Shown one piece after another: positions 36,225 through 54,296 of a stretch of DNA of 64,000 nucleotides. Numbering within the stretch: position 1 is the stretch's first letter; each line of letters opens with the position of its first letter. Made by a program: the position numbers and the translations under genes. Under the pieces are notes generated by a model. The model saw nothing but the letters and a program-made list of their open reading frames with translations, made no database searches and was not told the origin of the DNA. The stretch comes from a virus (lineage: Duplodnaviria; Caudoviricetes), in the IMG/VR virus record IMGVR_UViG_3300027804_000001, positions 64,001 through 128,000 of that record; one strand, 5' to 3'.

Positions 36225-36320
36225 CTACTAAAAAGGGGGTATATAAGGGGGGATACGGGAGGGGGGAGGGGGTATATAGGGATAAGGGGGTGAGTATCAA
36301 TTAGTTAGGGGGTATAGGGC
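36225..36320 (+). other. G-tract region with G-quadruplex potential
   Basis: GGGGG-TATATAA-GGGGGG-ATAC-GGG-A-GGGGGG-A-GGGGG-TATATA-GGG-ATAA-GGGGG in an AT-rich genome; non-coding, at a divergent strand switch. Confidence 0.7.
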
Positions 36321-36356
36321 CATTCTTTATTCAAACCGGATCAACAGGGTGGTGAG

Positions 36357-36377
36357 TGTGGATAACTATGTGGATAA
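36357..36377 (-). promoter_or_regulatory. Two tandem perfect DnaA boxes (TGTGGATAA at 36357-36365 and 36369-36377)
   Basis: Exact match to TTATCCACA on the - strand, 12-bp period. Confidence 0.6.
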
Positions 36378-36472
36378 CTTTAATAAAAAAAAATAAAAAA
36401 AATTTATCATTATACTTTTTTATATGGAATTAATTTCCGTACTTTGTTCTATCAATAACAATTAAACATTTA

Positions 36473-37015
36473 ATGATTATGAAAAATTCAATGAACACAA
36501 CCGAAGTAAACATTACAAAGAACGAGTTATTAACTTTGTTAATGTCAGTAGACAAACCGACCTTTACTAACATTCTTTACCAAATTAAAGTAAAGATGAA
36601 CAAGACCGACAACCCTTATTACGAGAGGGTATTCAAGACAACCAAAGGAAACTTTTTCATTGGGGGTACTTACGAGGATATGGTAAACGAGAGAATGAAG
36701 AAAGAGGGATTGACACCTAACTTTGTGAGTGAGGAAAACAATGTAGGGGAACACATTACAAAGTGTGTTCAGTTCAATGAGAAGTACAACAAACATTACC
36801 TACAATACTTTTCTTTTGAAAATTCAATTCATTCAACCGAATATGAATTTGAGGGAAGAAACATTGATAGAGAAATGTTCAAGTCCTTTGAGGTTAAGAA
36901 GTCCGAGAGTTCAAGACAACCCCAAGACAACAAACACCAAGTACAAAGTTTGACTATTGACAACATTAGGAAAATAACTTTGAACGGAACGAAGTACAAT
37001 GTAGTTGAGGGGTAA
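36473..37015 (+). CDS. Early hypothetical phage protein
   Basis: 180 aa; first gene of the + strand array, followed by a terminator. Confidence 0.8.
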   Translation: MIMKNSMNTTEVNITKNELLTLLMSVDKPTFTNILYQIKVKMNKTDNPYYERVFKTTKGNFFIGGTYEDMVNERMKKEGLTPNFVSEENNVGEHITKCVQFNEKYNKHYLQYFSFENSIHSTEYEFEGRNIDREMFKSFEVKKSESSRQPQDNKHQVQSLTIDNIRKITLNGTKYNVVEG

Positions 37016-37040
37016 CAACCCCTTTCCTTTGGAAACCAAA

Positions 37041-37070
37041 AGTCCCTTACGAGAGTAGGGGATTTTTTTT
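37041..37070 (+). terminator. Intrinsic terminator
   Basis: TCCCTTAC-GAGA-GTAGGGGA plus T8. Confidence 0.8.
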
Positions 37071-37350
37071 TGTCCAAGAACCCACCTTCGTCCCGTTGGG
37101 AATAGTGAACGGCCCCAAAAAAATACACACAAAAAAAATTCAAAAAAAATTTGGAGGATTTTTTTCCTTCCCGAATAATGAGGGGCCCGTATTACAAGAA
37201 AATGAAAAATTTACAACCTTGTATTTTTTTTGAATAATGACAGGCCCATGTATTTTTGTCATACACGAACTGAGCCGTTCATTAATTTTCTCCGACAGAT
37301 GTCCCACAAAAAAAAATAAAATATTTTATTGTGTAATGAAATAAATGTTA

Positions 37351-37358
37351 TACATTTG
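37351..37358 (+). promoter_or_regulatory. Bacteroidota -7 promoter box
   Basis: TACATTTG, 25 nt upstream of the ATG at 37383. Confidence 0.7.
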
Positions 37359-37382
37359 TACTCAATTAAAAAATATAATAAA

Positions 37383-37631
37383 ATGAACAAAGAAAAAGTA
37401 ACCGAGATTGTCAATGAAGTTATTAACCAAAGGTTAGAACAACTAATGGAAGAAATGTCCACCAACGAGTTCGTGGAAATGATTTGTGATATGGTACACG
37501 ACCAAGTGGGTTTGGATTTGGAAGATGAGGACAAAGTAGAGGAAGTCCGAGAAATTATTGGTAGTAGGGTTATACCTTTACTGACCAAAGTGTGTGAGTA
37601 TGTCATTGGAGTAGACCTACCAAAGGACTAA
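37383..37631 (+). CDS. Small acidic early protein
   Basis: MNKEKVTEIVNEVINQRLEQ...; start moved downstream of the promoter. Confidence 0.75.
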   Translation: MNKEKVTEIVNEVINQRLEQLMEEMSTNEFVEMICDMVHDQVGLDLEDEDKVEEVREIIGSRVIPLLTKVCEYVIGVDLPKD

Positions 37632-51703: not shown

Positions 51704-51791
51704 TCAGGATCATGCTGTTCGAATATGACCGGCCCAAAAAAATATTCTAGAAAAATTTGGAATATTCCAAAAACTTATTAACTTTACAACT

Positions 51792-52097
51792 ATGGATTAC
51801 TCTAGACAACTTGTGGAGATAAGAAACAGTCTTCACTGTGATATTGTCCAAGAAGCATGTCACAAGAATTTTGTTATTAATGGTAGTAGTGATGGTGTTC
51901 TACTCCTGAAGAAACCAATTAGTGTTGGTGGCTTTACGGTCGGGAGTGTTTGTTGTGAGACGGGATTAATATTATCTACAGATAACGAAAAGACTATTCC
52001 CTACCAAGTATTATCGATAGAAGACCTATCTGTAATACACGAAAGTTTGGTCCAAGCAAAAAACTATACATTCACATTAAATGAACAACTTGTATGA
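51792..52097 (+). CDS. Hypothetical protein
   Basis: 101 aa; promoter TTTG (51756) - 19 nt - TAACTTTA. Confidence 0.7.
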   Translation: MDYSRQLVEIRNSLHCDIVQEACHKNFVINGSSDGVLLLKKPISVGGFTVGSVCCETGLILSTDNEKTIPYQVLSIEDLSVIHESLVQAKNYTFTLNEQLV

Positions 52098-52288
52098 CAA
52101 ATCCATTTATCATGAAGATGTGGGTTAAAGCCCAAATCAGGGACCTCGAGATGGAATCACAGGTATGTATTACAGAGGCTGATGCATACAGGATTCAGGG
52201 AAAGTTAGATATCCTGAAAGAATTCTACGACGACTTCAACTTGGAGTCCATAGATGAAAAAGAAATCATTATTCACAATAAGTTTTAA
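52094..52288 (+). CDS. Hypothetical protein
   Basis: 64 aa; ATGA overlap. Confidence 0.65.
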   Translation: MTNPFIMKMWVKAQIRDLEMESQVCITEADAYRIQGKLDILKEFYDDFNLESIDEKEIIIHNKF

Positions 52289-52291
52289 ATT

Positions 52292-52879
52292 ATGGAATCA
52301 AAAGAAATTATTTTAGGGACTGAAGTTATGGTAAGTGACCCCTGTTACACCGAACCCACATGGTGTCAGGTGAAGTTAAAGAATGTTAAACCTGGTAAGT
52401 ACTATGCCTTTCATAAGGAGCACGATGCAGGTGATTGGGGTGTTAGGTCATCCATGATTATGGTGATTCACGAGGAACACATTCTTGACCAGCTCAAATG
52501 GAAACTCCAACCAGGTGAAGTAGGTGTTGACTCTGGTCAAGCAGGTATATTCTCATATGAGACATACCGTAAGGATGGGATTGAAATGGATATTCCATCA
52601 GTTGGATACGACGGGAAGAATTTTGACTGGCTTGATTCCATCTCGAGGGAGGATGAGGTTGGAGAAGATTGGTATAAGAAGATGTGCAAGATGACATTGT
52701 CCGAGATTGGATGGGGAACATATTCGAACGGTATAGTTTCTCGTAGTGGATTTGGTGATGGTGGATACCAACTATTCACAGCAAAGAGTGGAAGAAAGAT
52801 TGTAGCAATGGCTGTTGATTTTGCTGTGGAGGATGGGGAGTTTATTAACTTCGACTGGTACAGAGAAGTGTACATATAA
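52292..52879 (+). CDS. DUF4241-like protein
   Basis: VMVSDPCY, VGVDSGQAGIF, SGFGDGGY. Confidence 0.75.
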   Translation: MESKEIILGTEVMVSDPCYTEPTWCQVKLKNVKPGKYYAFHKEHDAGDWGVRSSMIMVIHEEHILDQLKWKLQPGEVGVDSGQAGIFSYETYRKDGIEMDIPSVGYDGKNFDWLDSISREDEVGEDWYKKMCKMTLSEIGWGTYSNGIVSRSGFGDGGYQLFTAKSGRKIVAMAVDFAVEDGEFINFDWYREVYI

Positions 52880-53180
52880 TACTTCAGGGATCAGGAATCC
52901 CGGATTATGACTGGCTTTAAACATATAACGACATGAAAAAATTATTTGAGAACTTGCATTATCAGTGGGACTATGTAGTTGGATACATTATGTGTAACCC
53001 ACATTACCTCCACAGGTACCACACCTTTATGTACAAGAAGTGGGGGGAAAGATACTGCACAAAAAAAGAGCTCCAAGATTACCTTGAGAGCATGAATCGA
53101 GAATTATGACTGGCCTATATACCGATCTGATCCTGATCTGATCAGGATGGTAAATTATGACCGGCCCAAAACCATAGAAC

Positions 53181-53606
53181 ATGATAACATTATTGAAACC
53201 ATCACAGTGGACCAACTTAGGATACATTATCTTGGGTATAGTACTTGCACCGTACACCAATTGGTTAACCTTAGTAGTCCCCGTATGGATGATGATAGAA
53301 ACATCCTTTACTAGGTATGAAATCTACGACGACCGAATCATATACCGAAGAGGAGTCTTTACTGTAACCACGGACGAAATCCTACTCTACAGAATTAAGG
53401 CCATCAACCTTAACGAGCCATTCTTATATAGACTCGTCGGTATCTCCAACCTGAGTATAATCACCTCGGATAAGTATGTCAATGAGATTACCCTCAAAGG
53501 TGTCCCCGTGGGTATGAACTTCAGAAACGCCCTAAGGGAGTTAGTCGAAGAGAACCGTACCAAGAAGGGTGTGAAAGAGTTTGACCTGTACGAACTGTCA
53601 GTCTGA
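53181..53606 (+). CDS. Bacterial PH-domain (bPH_2) membrane protein
   Basis: Two TMs then RYEIYDDRIIYRRGVF....DEILLYRIKAI....PFLYRLVG. Confidence 0.8.
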   Translation: MITLLKPSQWTNLGYIILGIVLAPYTNWLTLVVPVWMMIETSFTRYEIYDDRIIYRRGVFTVTTDEILLYRIKAINLNEPFLYRLVGISNLSIITSDKYVNEITLKGVPVGMNFRNALRELVEENRTKKGVKEFDLYELSV

Positions 53607-53732
53607 CCCCGGATGGTAAATTATGACTGGCTCGTGTATTACATGGGTTATTTAAAAAACCAAAAAAAAGTTGCCTATTATTTTTTTTTACGGATTATTA
53701 AGGTTATAATTTTTATATAAACTTAATAATAT

Positions 53733-53939
53733 ATGCCAAGTACAAAAACCATGAAGACGACTCGTACTAAGAGTACTGGTCGTAAAACAGTTACTACGTA
53801 TGTACCTGTATCTGACAACATCTACCACGACGGTTTCTCTTACCGTGTACGTGTGAGTGTATCAGGAACAAAGTACTCTAAGAACTTCAGTTCTCGTAAG
53901 AAAGCTGTTCAGTACCGTAACGAACTTTTGGGTAAGTAA
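53733..53939 (+). CDS. Small basic AP2/integrase-arm-like DNA-binding protein
   Basis: NIYHDGFSYRVRVSVSGTKYSKNFSSRKKAVQYRN (three strands plus helix); strongly biased codons (CGT/ACT/TAC/AAC); own terminator at 53965-53994. Confidence 0.6.
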   Translation: MPSTKTMKTTRTKSTGRKTVTTYVPVSDNIYHDGFSYRVRVSVSGTKYSKNFSSRKKAVQYRNELLGK

Positions 53940-54296
53940 TCAATATACTCACCACAAAAATTCTAAGGTCTTCCGAAAGGGGGACCTTTTTTTTGTTTAA
54001 CCTCTACGTGTATTACTTAAACAATATGTACATCTTACACTGTGAATTATGACCGGCCTGGGCCAGTCTTATTTTACTTACGAACCGTTGTTAAAACAAC
54101 TATATAATGACTGGCCCATATGTATTACGGGCCTCCCTTCGGTCGGCCCTTCATCCCGTTGCCAGACAAAATCATAGTATGGTGTATTACTAATGTTGTT
54201 TGGCAAGTCTATTATTACGGGGACACTCCGTGTCCCCTTCATCCCGTATGTATGACACATTATAGTGGACCATATGTATGACACCTGACCCCCTGA

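What the first reader, a model, noticed from the sequence alone, without database searches (positions are those of the whole stretch)
36318..54116. Undescribed palindromic repeat family confined to an 18-kb gene array
Seen: every intergenic gap between a terminator and the next promoter holds a GC-rich 60-250 bp patch built from a half-site of about (A/T)ATGA(A/C)(C/T)GGC(C/T). Eight are full palindromes with a 4-bp core, e.g. ATGAACGGC-CTGA-GCCATTCA (41441), ATGAATGGC-CCGA-GCCATACAT (43762), ATGACCGGC-CCGA-GCCATTCAT (47070), AAGACTGGC-TCAG-GCCATTCAT (48735); others are at 38699, 42103, 44828 and 54048. Further inverted pairs have 6 to about 35 bp spacers, often containing GTATTACA. Flanks also recur (GATCACATGT on one side, GATCA(C/G)GGTG on the other) and occur in either orientation (42117-42140 is the reverse of 39061-39086). 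I count about 45-50 half-sites inside the region and saw only one close match outside it (about 12923). It is not CRISPR and not a known attC. Inference: a binding-site array for a dimeric phage protein. It could be a global early-gene switch, a parS-like segregation or DNA-entry track, a set of recombination sites for shuffling cassettes, or a REPIN-like selfish element.
Basis: partly seen in the sequence, partly recalled or inferred. Interest (0 to 1): 0.9.

Follow-up and report, generated by a model that had tools for sequence, protein, structure and literature searches.

The report
Cassette-boundary repeats in a jumbo phage
A real family of short inverted DNA repeats, found only in one accessory-gene array, marks the end of nearly every self-contained gene cassette in an uncultivated freshwater jumbo phage and its relatives, and cassettes are lost, gained and reordered between relatives at these places, much like the promoter-terminator "PeSL" shuffling cassettes of T4-type phages but with an extra element.

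Summary
ATGAMYGGCY occurs 23 times in the window against 0.3 expected. A stricter 12-mer has 40 of its 42 hits in the 180.8-kb contig inside the array.

The unit is a 16-nt half-site, RAAWWA-TGAMYGGC-YY, with GC-rich flanks that carry GATC. It usually occurs as inverted pairs.

Fourteen related jumbo-phage loci have the same architecture, each with its own core (TGTTTGGC, TCTGTGGC, TCYTTGGC or TGACCGGC), and again only in the array. One of these genomes is a complete 310-kb record.

- **Not RNA or a hairpin:** paired arms match no better than random arms.
- **Tied to terminators, not promoters:** a repeat is present in 100 of 108 gaps with a terminator and 7 of 54 gaps with only a promoter. 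It sits at a fixed offset after the T-run.
- **Transcripts:** metatranscriptome contigs match single cassettes.
- **Shuffling:** cassettes are permuted between relatives and strains, and homology stops at the terminator.

Best reading (0.5): these are protein-recognised cassette-boundary elements where shuffling recombination takes place. This is a PeSL-like system with an added element whose core differs between lineages. I found no reader protein and no conserved recombinase. The ParB-like protein in the array does not co-vary with the core.

A second word exclusive to the arrays, GTATTAC, is enriched ten-fold on the gene strand and is unexplained. The scan had noted this same stretch before (e1-5320963), but not on other DNA.

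The parts
36318..54116 (+). Array of about 40 small, mostly orphan genes, all on the + strand, arranged as promoter-gene(s)-terminator cassettes. It is bounded by a divergent junction (about 36.1-36.45 kb) and a convergent junction (about 54.1-54.6 kb).
38695..38724 (.). Inverted half-site pair with a 4-nt core (TGAATGGC / TGTACGGC)
41437..41466 (.). Inverted half-site pair with a 4-nt core (TGAACGGC / TGAATGGC)
42100..42129 (.). Inverted half-site pair with a 4-nt core (TGTGTGGC / TGAGTGGC)
43759..43788 (.). Inverted half-site pair with a 4-nt core
44824..44853 (.). Inverted half-site pair with a 4-nt core. This is the left boundary of the four-gene block 44920-46984.
47066..47096 (.). Inverted half-site pair with a 4-nt core. 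This is the right boundary of the four-gene block.
48732..48761 (.). Inverted pair with a 4-nt core; the left arm is degenerate (AGACTGGC)
54044..54073 (.). Inverted pair with a 4-nt core at the right edge of the array; the right arm is degenerate
37720..37761 (.). Inverted pair with a 16-nt spacer that contains CGTATTACA
40108..40214 (.). Patch with a single + half-site (40113) and an inverted pair (40160/40202) whose 34-nt spacer holds two + oriented GTATTACA boxes
41000..41037 (.). Inverted pair with a 12-nt spacer that contains GTATTACA
39072..39152 (.). Inverted pair with a 55-nt spacer
51448..54130 (+). Right-hand part of the array. It has only single + oriented half-sites of TGACYGGC type (51453, 51726, 52624, 52908, 53107, 53158, 53624, 54108), in short gaps or inside ORFs, mostly without a terminator or promoter nearby.
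41373..41411 (+). Example of the intrinsic terminator that ends a cassette. The first half-site core starts 42-48 nt after the start of the T-run. Other + strand terminators are at 37038, 37652, 38552, 39012, 40928, 42035, 43698, 44762, 47006, 48668 and 53965.
41515..41546 (+). Example of the Bacteroidota-type promoter (TTTG, 17-21 nt, TAnnTTTG) that opens the next cassette, preceded by an A-tract. Others are at 38100, 38810, 39199, 40272, 42178, 43844, 44911, 47165, 47306, 48815 and 50780.
47406..48152 (+). Gene for a ParB-fold protein with an IDGQHR motif (PHROG 12305). It is present in every array fetched and covered by RNA contigs in both metatranscriptomes.
37076..39070 (+). Four cassettes that are absent from a co-occurring strain (run X8). 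The joint runs from just after a terminator to just before a half-site, with 28 unrelated GC-rich letters between.

Best explanation
The repeats are the third component of a composite cassette-boundary module.

Each cassette is an autonomous transcription unit: a host-type -33/-7 promoter, one to four small accessory genes, and an intrinsic terminator. A + oriented 16-nt half-site (RAAWWA-TGAMYGGC-YY) starts 42-48 nt after the terminator's T-run. It is usually followed by an inverted copy. Both sit in GC-rich flanks that carry GATC. An A-tract and the next promoter follow.

The half-sites are recognition sites on double-stranded DNA for a protein that I could not identify and that is probably encoded by the phage. 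They are not RNA or hairpin elements. They delimit the units that are deleted, inserted and reordered among relatives and strains, always keeping their orientation.

I infer that the patches are where the shuffling recombination takes place, as with the PeSL promoter/stem-loop cassettes of T4-type phages. Within a genome the sites stay alike, probably through local gene conversion or copying of the module. Between lineages the core drifts or switches.

Shown: the anatomy, the confinement to the array, conservation across the lineage, the tie to terminators, cassette-sized RNA contigs, cassette permutation, and homology breaks in the patches.

Inferred: that the sites cause or target the recombination, that a protein reads them, and which enzyme acts (a dedicated one or the phage's general recombination system).
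For: - **Real and confined:**. The same holds in relatives: G001 (complete, 310.5 kb) has 38 of 38 hits in one 29-kb block, and G002 and G003 each have 20 of 21 in one 30-kb block, with 0 control hits.
- **Same grammar, different core:** 14 related loci carry lineage-specific cores.
- **Pattern typical of protein recognition:** TG and GGC are invariant in 43 of 43 copies with variable letters between. Paired arms are no more alike than random arms, 0 of 14 pairs are identical, and mismatches are mostly non-pairing. Rfam finds nothing above threshold.
- **Tied to cassette ends:** a repeat is present in 73 of 78 terminator+promoter gaps, 27 of 30 terminator-only gaps, 7 of 54 promoter-only gaps and 19 of 192 other gaps. 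The offset from the T-run is tight and genome-specific, and the first site is + oriented in 115 of 128 cases.
- **Cassettes are transcription units:** RNA contigs in two metatranscriptomes match single cassettes, and none of the listed pieces spans a patch. Terminators number 29 against 9.6 expected. Promoter matches number 26 against 11.9 expected.
- **Shuffling:** shared cassettes are permuted in the same orientation. A strain variant has joints inside patches. Homology ends at the T-run and resumes at the repeat or promoter. Of 263 homology-block ends near a boundary, only 8 pass more than 30 nt beyond the T-run.
- **Concerted evolution:** relatives have no copy of the window's motif although they share cassettes. 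Variants cluster along the array, with 12 runs against 19.8 +/- 3.0 expected, P = 0.0075.
- **Precedent:** PeSLs are described in PMC2839356 and PMC4122927.
Against: - No reader protein was found. None of the four array proteins conserved across repeat types has residues that switch with the core.
- No conserved dedicated recombinase was found. A tyrosine recombinase occurs only in G001, 42 kb from its array. No serine recombinase is present in four relatives. No Y1 transposase is present in this contig.
- The match between homology breaks and patches could be passive. Only whole transcription units may survive selection, and unconstrained spacers diverge fastest.
- The strict tie to terminators could instead reflect a role in transcription or DNA topology.
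- The strain evidence comes from assembled contigs, not reads. At least one 'joint' (40177 to 38801) may be a spacer variant rather than a rearrangement.
- The single half-sites at the right end, some inside ORFs, do not bound obvious cassettes.
Confidence: 0.5

Rival explanations
1. An element that acts at the 3' end of each transcription unit, in transcription or DNA topology. A protein bound just after each terminator either blocks read-through between neighbouring strong units, or is a topoisomerase that removes the positive supercoils built up ahead of RNA polymerase. E. coli gyrase does this at BIME-2 repeats and downstream of highly transcribed operons. On this reading cassette shuffling is only a side effect.
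For: The repeats follow terminators in 100 of 108 terminator gaps, whether or not a promoter follows. They sit at a fixed offset and orientation after the T-run. None of the listed RNA contigs covers a patch. Gyrase cleavage sites are enriched downstream of highly transcribed operons and in BIME-2 elements (PMC6379681).
Against: Gyrase recognition is long and degenerate (about 130 bp by indirect readout), unlike a sharp TG-N3-GGC core that switches between lineages. A host enzyme would not need a different core in each phage lineage. Single half-sites occur inside ORFs with no terminator. No candidate protein was tested.
Confidence: 0.17
2. A dedicated cassette-mobilising system, resembling an integron or a cut-and-paste transposon. 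A phage-encoded recombinase, nuclease or transposase binds the inverted half-sites, which act as cassette ends, and excises and reinserts cassettes. The GC-rich, palindrome-rich flanks that differ from junction to junction would be joining footprints.
For: The cassettes are co-oriented and are bounded by inverted half-sites with short cores. In three resolved cases a flank of 23-30 nt is specific to the junction, while the terminator goes with the upstream cassette and the repeat and promoter go with the downstream cassette. The flanks hold GATC, GCGC and similar words that the genome otherwise avoids, and an excess of short perfect dyads: 55 of 324 against 20.7 +/- 4.6 in shuffles. Back-pointing joints in a strain variant are compatible with circles or tandem copies.
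Against: No conserved recombinase or transposase was found. Arm spacing varies widely. 83% of flanks have no dyad. The window and L020, which share the same junction, have a recognisably homologous flank there, so the flanks are inherited and not remade each generation. No crossover point is mapped to the nucleotide.
Confidence: 0.18
3. An operator array for a global regulator of the array's promoters. This could be a classical repressor or activator, or a KorB/ParB-like clamp loaded at the sites that acts on promoters from a distance.
For: The last site lies 42-91 nt upstream of the -33 element of most promoters. A well-expressed ParB-fold protein is encoded in every array. KorB acts from operators away from promoters (PMC11790492). 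A lineage-specific core would fit heteroimmunity.
Against: Only 7 of 54 promoter-only gaps carry a site, while 27 of 30 terminator-only gaps do. The distance to the promoter is loose, with an interquartile range of 52-77 nt. The ParB-fold protein is DGQHR-type, has no significant ParB_N match in Pfam and no sequence match among solved structures, and none of 102 informative columns co-varies with the core.
Confidence: 0.08
4. A selfish miniature element of the MITE or REP/REPIN type that has multiplied in the only part of the genome that tolerates it.
For: It is a short, GC-rich, inverted repeat in intergenic DNA, in pairs with variable linkers as in BIMEs (PMC3333891). Each genome has its own family.
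Against: No Y1 transposase was found (the contig covers about 54% of the genome). A half-site is not itself a hairpin, and nothing selects for arm pairing. The 11.6 kb of other intergenic DNA has no copy. The position after the terminator is fixed. The element is kept in the same slot across lineages whose marker protein is only 60-79% identical to the window's.
Confidence: 0.05
5. An element at the RNA level: hairpins at transcript ends that stabilise or process the RNA, or promoters for a phage RNA polymerase.
For: The eight tight palindromes could fold. The tool calls three of them (41443-41462 on the - strand, 38703-38716 and 43767-43780 on the +) as weak terminator-like stems.
Against: Arm mismatches are mostly non-pairing. 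Many sites are single or far apart. The listed RNA contigs end at the true terminators and start at host-type promoters. Rfam finds nothing.
Confidence: 0.02

Closest known systems
PeSLs (promoter-early stem-loops), the composite promoter-terminator cassettes in the hyperplastic regions of T4-type phages (Arbiol et al. 2010, PMC2839356; Comeau et al. 2014, PMC4122927)
   Same: Both are repeated intergenic modules that combine a strong host-type promoter with an AT-rich upstream tract and a stem-loop terminator. Both flank orphan genes in a hyperplastic region of a large lytic-type phage. In both, insertions, deletions and replacements between relatives are bounded by the modules. In PeSLs the crossovers are scattered over the module.
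   Different: This module has a third part between terminator and promoter. It consists of inverted 16-nt half-sites with an invariant TG-N3-GGC skeleton and GC-rich flanks that carry GATC. It is neither promoter nor terminator, it is exclusive to the array, and its core differs between lineages. The host promoter is of the Bacteroidota -33/-7 type. Mini-circles have not been shown here. The phage lineage is unrelated to T4 as far as I tested.
REP / BIME / REPIN elements with their RAYT (Y1) transposases (PMC3333891)
   Same: Both are short, GC-rich, intergenic repeats that lie near the 3' ends of genes, mostly as inverted pairs separated by linkers of variable length, with a different family in each genome.
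   Different: Each REP is itself an imperfect hairpin with a conserved GTAG and works as single-stranded DNA with a Y1 transposase. Here a half-site is not a hairpin, arm pairing is not selected, no Y1 transposase was found, and copies are confined to one array instead of being dispersed.
Integron gene-cassette arrays (attC sites and the IntI recombinase); this comparison rests on established knowledge, not on a test here
   Same: Both are co-oriented arrays of mostly orphan cassettes. Each cassette ends in an imperfect inverted-repeat element of variable length, and cassette content and order differ between relatives.
   Different: Integron cassettes lack their own promoters and depend on Pc. 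attC is recognised as a folded single strand with extrahelical bases by an adjacent IntI. Here every cassette has its own promoter and terminator, nothing selects for folding, and no adjacent or conserved tyrosine recombinase exists.
KorB operators (OB) on plasmid RK2, and ParB-parS (PMC11790492)
   Same: Both involve many copies of a short palindrome spread over a mobile genome. A ParB-fold protein is encoded among the sites. Action at a distance from promoters is conceivable.
   Different: The protein here is a DGQHR-type ParB fold without a recognisable ParB_N CTPase domain or helix-turn-helix. It does not co-vary with the core. The sites follow terminators, not promoters. Arm spacing is not fixed.

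Membership tests
PeSL-type composite regulatory cassettes (a functional class, not a homology family) | An intergenic module that combines a strong host-sigma promoter, an AT-rich upstream tract and a stem-loop terminator | tested here: met
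   Terminators: 29 against 9.6 +/- 3.1 expected. The -33/-7 pattern: 26 against 11.9 +/- 3.4 expected, 16 of them on the + strand in the array. A-tracts lie upstream of TTTGG.
PeSL-type composite regulatory cassettes (a functional class, not a homology family) | Concentrated in a hyperplastic region and flanking orphan genes | tested here: met
   Most array proteins have no Pfam or PHROG match, or only DUF families. Many cassettes are unique to one genome.
PeSL-type composite regulatory cassettes (a functional class, not a homology family) | Insertions, deletions and replacements between close relatives are bounded by the modules | tested here: met
   Cassettes are permuted. A strain variant has joints in the patches. 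Homology blocks end at the T-run.
PeSL-type composite regulatory cassettes (a functional class, not a homology family) | Recombination between modules produces mini-circles | not testable with these tools
   Back-pointing joints in run X8 (41466 to 40240, 40177 to 38801) are compatible with circles, tandem copies or a different gene order in another strain. Only contigs were available.
REP / BIME / REPIN | Each repeat unit is an imperfect palindrome that folds as a hairpin | tested here: not met
   A half-site is not self-complementary. In 14 inverted pairs no arms are identical, the mismatch count equals random expectation, and mismatches are mostly non-pairing.
REP / BIME / REPIN | A cognate Y1 (RAYT) transposase in the genome | tested here: not met
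   PF01797 has no match in the 180.8-kb contig. The contig is only about 54% of the genome, so absence is not proven.
REP / BIME / REPIN | Dispersed through intergenic DNA genome-wide | tested here: not met
   No strict hit lies in the 11.6 kb of intergenic DNA outside the array. In the complete relative G001, 38 of 38 hits fall in one 29-kb block.
Integron | An adjacent IntI tyrosine recombinase with attI and Pc | tested here: not met
   PF00589 is absent from this contig and from G002-G004. The single hit, in G001, lies 42 kb from the array.
Integron | Cassettes without promoters, each ending in an attC that is recognised as a folded strand | tested here: not met
   The cassettes have their own promoters and terminators. 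Nothing selects for pairing between arms.
ParB-parS / KorB-OB | A ParB-family CTPase with a helix-turn-helix that reads the palindrome | tested here: inconclusive
   PHROG 12305, 'ParB-like', E = 1e-23. There is no Pfam ParB_N match and no sequence match among solved structures. The IDGQHR motif places it in the DGQHR branch of the fold (the assignment is from my own knowledge). I did not predict a structure.
ParB-parS / KorB-OB | Protein and site co-vary between lineages | tested here: not met
   Of 102 columns fixed across six TGTTTGGC-type proteins, none switches in the TGAMYGGC or TCTGTGGC clades.
CRISPR array | Identical direct repeats at regular spacing with unique spacers | tested here: not met
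   The repeats are inverted, degenerate and 0.4-2.3 kb apart, with genes between them.

The most novel reading that the evidence does not exclude
The half-sites are the ends of mobile, self-expressing gene cassettes handled by a dedicated recombinase or nuclease that the phage encodes and that has not been recognised. This would be a phage counterpart of the integron, in which each cassette carries its own promoter and terminator. The GC-rich, palindrome-rich flanks that differ from junction to junction would be joining footprints. The co-directional GTATTAC word, enriched ten-fold, exclusive to the arrays and independent of reading frame, would be a Chi-like or enzyme-orienting signal belonging to the same system.
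Probability: 0.18. Interest if true: 0.85.

Novelty: new variant of a known kind. Interest (0 to 1): 0.62.

Why it matters
How large phages gain, lose and rearrange the orphan genes that probably serve host takeover and counter-defence is poorly understood. PeSLs of T4-type phages are the only described vehicle I found.

This lineage is widespread in freshwater. The marker protein has 282 homologues, and the phage turns up in runs from 16 studies. It gives a second, independent and richer example:
- The boundary module carries an extra sequence element with a sharp, lineage-specific core, which implies a specific protein partner.
- A directional 7-mer marks the whole array.
- The boundaries are exempt from the genome's avoidance of restriction-type words.

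If a dedicated enzyme is involved, this would be a new kind of cassette-exchange system. If not, it is still a clear natural system for measuring how recombination between short repeats builds accessory-gene arrays. The many natural variants and existing metatranscriptomes make it testable without an isolate.

Tried and rejected
- **DNA search of deposited phages:** blastn of 7.9 kb of the array found nothing. By protein, the nearest named phages are Flavobacterium siphophages at 34% identity. No annotated relative exists.
- **Rfam at E <= 1:** only sub-threshold chance hits.
- **E. coli-type promoter scan:** 70 found against 71.8 expected. It is uninformative because the promoters are of the Bacteroidota type.
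- **Second ParB-like protein, 32874-33776:** sub-threshold ParB_N match and absent from four relatives. Rejected as a common reader.
- **DGQHR protein as the specificity reader:** a first look at nine sequences seemed mixed. The 14-sequence test was negative.
- **Other array proteins conserved across repeat types** (40326, DUF932 at 43897, 51221): also negative.
- **Sigma-70 family gene:** none in the contig.
- **Dyad symmetry of the flanks as a defining structure:** enriched, but absent from 83% of flanks, so rejected as a rule.
- **'Homology begins at the first half-site':** this held in one alignment. The blastn endpoint survey shows that most detectable homology begins at the A-tract or promoter.
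- **Joint 40177 to 38801 in run X8:** this may be a variant of the 38700 palindrome with a GTATTAC-bearing spacer rather than a rearrangement, so I do not count it as one.
- **Not run:** structure prediction, fold search and complex prediction. No candidate reader justified them.

Full report
**Setting.** The window is the reverse strand of bases 96178-160177 of a 180,831-bp IMG/VR viral contig that CheckV rates about 54% complete. GC content is about 31%. The flagged region is a single block of about 40 small genes on the + strand. A divergent junction near 36.2 kb and a convergent junction near 54.1-54.6 kb bound it. Most of its proteins have no family. The few matches are DUF932, DUF6915, DUF6891, DUF4241, bPH_2, a weak L5 gp82-like hit, and a ParB-like PHROG. 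Only one pair of paralogues lies in the array. No deposited phage matches at DNA level. The nearest named homologues are in Flavobacterium siphophages at 34% identity. Relatives sit on IMG/VR contigs of up to 334 kb, so this is an uncultivated jumbo-phage lineage. Its promoters are of the Bacteroidota type. It is found in freshwater metagenomes from 16 studies.

**Check of the observation.** ATGAMYGGCY occurs 23 times against 0.32 expected, always inside 37273-54116. A strict 12-mer has 42 hits in the whole contig. Forty are in the array and none are in the 11.6 kb of intergenic DNA elsewhere. An alignment of 43 copies shows the conserved unit RAAWWA-TGAMYGGC-YY. TG and GGC are invariant and the three letters between them vary. 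The 27-nt outer flanks average 48% GC, and whole patches are 38-55% GC against 31.7% for the window.

**DNA site or folded structure.** In 14 inverted pairs no two arms are identical. The total number of arm-to-arm mismatches equals what random pairing of arms gives, and the mismatches are mostly non-pairing. Rfam finds nothing above threshold. So nothing selects for an RNA hairpin, a cruciform or a folded single strand. Invariant positions separated by free positions are what base-specific protein contacts on duplex DNA produce. This last step is an inference.

**The lineage.** The ParB-like gene served as a marker to fetch nine IMG/VR loci and five more from other assemblies. None carries the window's motif. 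Each has the same grammar with its own core:
- TGTTTGGC in L010, L011, L015, L016, L023 and L024
- TCTGTGGC in L012-L014, L017 and L018
- TCYTTGGC in L022
- TGACCGGC or the TGAMYGGC mix in L020 and L021, the window's closest relatives

 The family invariant is T-[G/C]-N3-GGC after an A/T-rich pentamer and a GC-rich flank rich in CAGG, GGTG and GATC. Confinement holds over whole genomes. In the complete 310.5-kb G001, all 38 hits lie in one 29-kb block. In G002 and G003, 20 of 21 hits lie in one 30-kb block. Reversed-pattern controls give 0. Arm-to-arm spacing is about 14-15 nt in G001 and G002, against 4 nt in the window's tight pairs.

**What the repeat is tied to.** I classified 354 gaps in 11 arrays by terminator, promoter and repeat.

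| Gap type | Gaps with a repeat |
|---|---|
| Terminator and promoter | 73 of 78 |
| Terminator only | 27 of 30 |
| Promoter only | 7 of 54 |
| Neither | 19 of 192 |

The first core starts at a tight, genome-specific distance after the start of the T-run: 42-48 nt in the window's clade, about 51 nt in L018 and about 60 nt in L023. It is + oriented in 115 of 128 cases. The distance from the last site to the -33 element is loose, with an interquartile range of 52-77 nt. So the element belongs to the end of a cassette and is not part of the promoter. Independent scans agree on the two other components: 29 terminator-like sites against 9.6 +/- 3.1 expected, and 26 matches to the TTTG / TAnnTTTG pattern against 11.9 +/- 3.4 expected.

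**Expression.** Contigs from two metatranscriptomes coincide with single cassettes: 36471-37048, 40326-40903, 43891-44756, 41581-42018, 53206-53896, and 47355-48171 in both runs. None of the listed RNA pieces covers a patch. These are assembled contigs, so exact transcript ends and strands are not shown. The fit to the predicted promoters and terminators is nevertheless close.

**Shuffling.** Label the shared cassettes A-K in window order. L018 has A-E-D-G-I-F-B-H-J-K and L011 has A-G-E-C-K, always in the same orientation, and many cassettes are unique to one genome. The four-gene block 44920-46984 moves as a unit and has repeats on both sides in each genome.

A co-occurring strain (run X8, 90-99% identical) lacks 37076-39070. 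The joint runs from just after a terminator to just before a half-site, with 28 unrelated GC-rich letters between. The same run places the 41441 palindrome in front of the 40326 cassette.

Alignments of the block's boundaries show two things:
- The 3' end and the terminator are shared by all three genomes up to the T-run. The genome with a different downstream neighbour diverges immediately after it.
- Two genomes with different upstream neighbours but the same downstream cassette become homologous again from the first half-site onward.

In an all-against-all survey, 48 of 263 homology-block ends near a boundary fall exactly at the T-run, and only 8 extend more than 30 nt beyond it. Most detectable homology begins again at the A-tract or promoter. 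The patch is therefore the systematic break between homology blocks.

**Concerted evolution.** Shared cassettes carry the repeat type of the genome they sit in. Within the window, variants cluster by position. Cores of the TGAA type lie to the left and TGAC type to the right, giving 12 runs against 19.8 +/- 3.0 expected, P = 0.0075. The C/T variation at core position 5 is a CpG-to-TpG difference.

**Search for the enzyme or reader.**
- The contig has no tyrosine recombinase, Y1 transposase or sigma-70 family gene.
- Among four relatives, only the complete G001 has a tyrosine recombinase, 42 kb from its array. None has a serine recombinase.
- The ParB-like protein outside the array is absent from relatives.
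- The protein inside the array has an IDGQHR motif but no significant Pfam match and no sequence match among solved structures.
- Of 102 of its columns fixed across six deeply diverged TGTTTGGC-type phages, none switches in the two derived clades.
- The other three array proteins conserved across repeat types are negative as well.

So any reader is encoded elsewhere, or the sites are kept alike mainly by copying.

**Further grammar, unexplained.**
- *Restriction-type words.* GATC and GCGC are strongly avoided in the genome. Counts are observed/expected:

| Word | Genes outside the array | Genes in the array | Array patches |
|---|---|---|---|
| GATC | 108/414 | 4/41 | 23/16 |
| GCGC | 4/79 | 0/12 | 7/4 |

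  The seven in the patches are 7 of the contig's 13 GCGC sites. The same contrast is seen in L018, L020, L021 and L011. The deepest branches do not avoid GATC. The phage encodes a D12-class methylase.
- *Short dyads.* The flanks have an excess of short perfect dyads, 55 of 324 against 20.7 +/- 4.6 in shuffles, but most flanks have none.
- *GTATTAC.* Its sequence is conserved across all lineages. Over 11 arrays there are 214 copies on the gene strand against about 22 expected, and 65 on the other strand. Genic copies are spread evenly over the three reading frames (44/39/42). The other 162 kb of this contig has only 3 + 7 copies.

**Interpretation.** The best-supported reading is a PeSL-like composite boundary module (PMC2839356 and PMC4122927) with an additional protein-recognised element at the end of each cassette. 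Its anatomy and its co-location with rearrangements are shown. Its causal role and its partner protein are inferred. The rivals are:
- a role at the 3' end in transcription or DNA topology, for which the BIME-2/gyrase precedent is PMC6379681;
- a dedicated integron- or transposon-like system;
- a KorB-like operator array (PMC11790492);
- a REPIN-like selfish element (PMC3333891);
- an RNA-level element.

The report sections give the evidence for and against each. The scan had already noted this same stretch (e1-5320963). No look-alike on other DNA is on record.

Noticed in passing
window 36100-54620 and the arrays of L010-L024: GTATTAC(A) is exclusive to the arrays and directional. Over 11 arrays there are 214 copies on the gene strand against about 22 expected, and 65 on the other strand. 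Genic copies use all three reading frames equally. The other 162 kb of this contig has only 3 + 7 copies. Its sequence is conserved across lineages while the half-site core changes. It could be a Chi-like or enzyme-orienting signal; I did not test this.
   Followed up: partly
window 54100-54650; L011 19130-19830: The convergent right border holds several copies of a conserved hairpin element, (T)ATTAC-GGG...CCC-TTCA(G/T): 54122-54160, 54208-54240, an inverted copy at 54290-54330, and 54617-54650. It also holds GTATGAC/GTATTAC boxes and a conserved C-rich stretch at 54444-54472. Rfam finds nothing there.
   Followed up: partly
window 36357-36377 and 54464-54472: Three of the contig's eight perfect DnaA boxes (TTATCCACA) sit at the two borders of the array. 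Two of them are in tandem at the divergent left junction.
   Followed up: partly
whole contig; array patches: The genome strongly avoids GATC, GCGC and TGCGCA, but the patches are exempt: 23 GATC, 7 of the 13 GCGC and 3 of the 4 TGCGCA sites. A D12-class (Dam-type) methylase is encoded at G000:C1:83755-84681, outside the window.
   Followed up: partly
window 36215-36320: The divergent left junction carries G-rich repeats of the form GGGGGTATATA(A/G)GG. Similar TTAGGGGTA words lie at the right border (54575-54612) and in L011 (19720-19760). They may be signals for the flanking genes on the - strand.
   Followed up: no
window 38730-38790: This is a 9-nt periodic stretch (GTACCTGAA-like; the reverse strand would read Gly-Thr-Ser repeats) where many contigs from all four runs end with loose, similar repeats. 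It is either a length-variable repeat or cross-mapping from Ser/Thr-rich fibre genes.
   Followed up: no
window 37058-37075, 39033-39049, 42055-42072: Three terminators are followed by the same words, T-run then GTCCAAGAA. Together with near-identical terminators in L018 (6838-6870 and 8178-8210, 97% identical), this shows that terminators are copied along with the boundary module.
   Followed up: partly
L018 promoters (for example 2856-2926 and 6978-7055): In the TCTGTGGC clade the tract upstream of -33 is not a plain A-tract. It is two direct TTAACAAAA-like repeats about 10 nt apart, which could be a separate upstream promoter element or factor site.
   Followed up: no
window 36473-37015 and 47406-48152: These two genes have the deepest RNA contigs in both metatranscriptomes (47.7/30 and 34.8/33.1). 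The gene at 47406 has two tandem promoters (47165 and 47306) in a 421-nt gap.
   Followed up: no
window 50131-50753: The X8 strain lacks 621 bp, covering the genes at 50091-50477 and 50480-50755. The joint has 6 nt of microhomology and no repeat, so not all indels in the array use the boundary modules.
   Followed up: no
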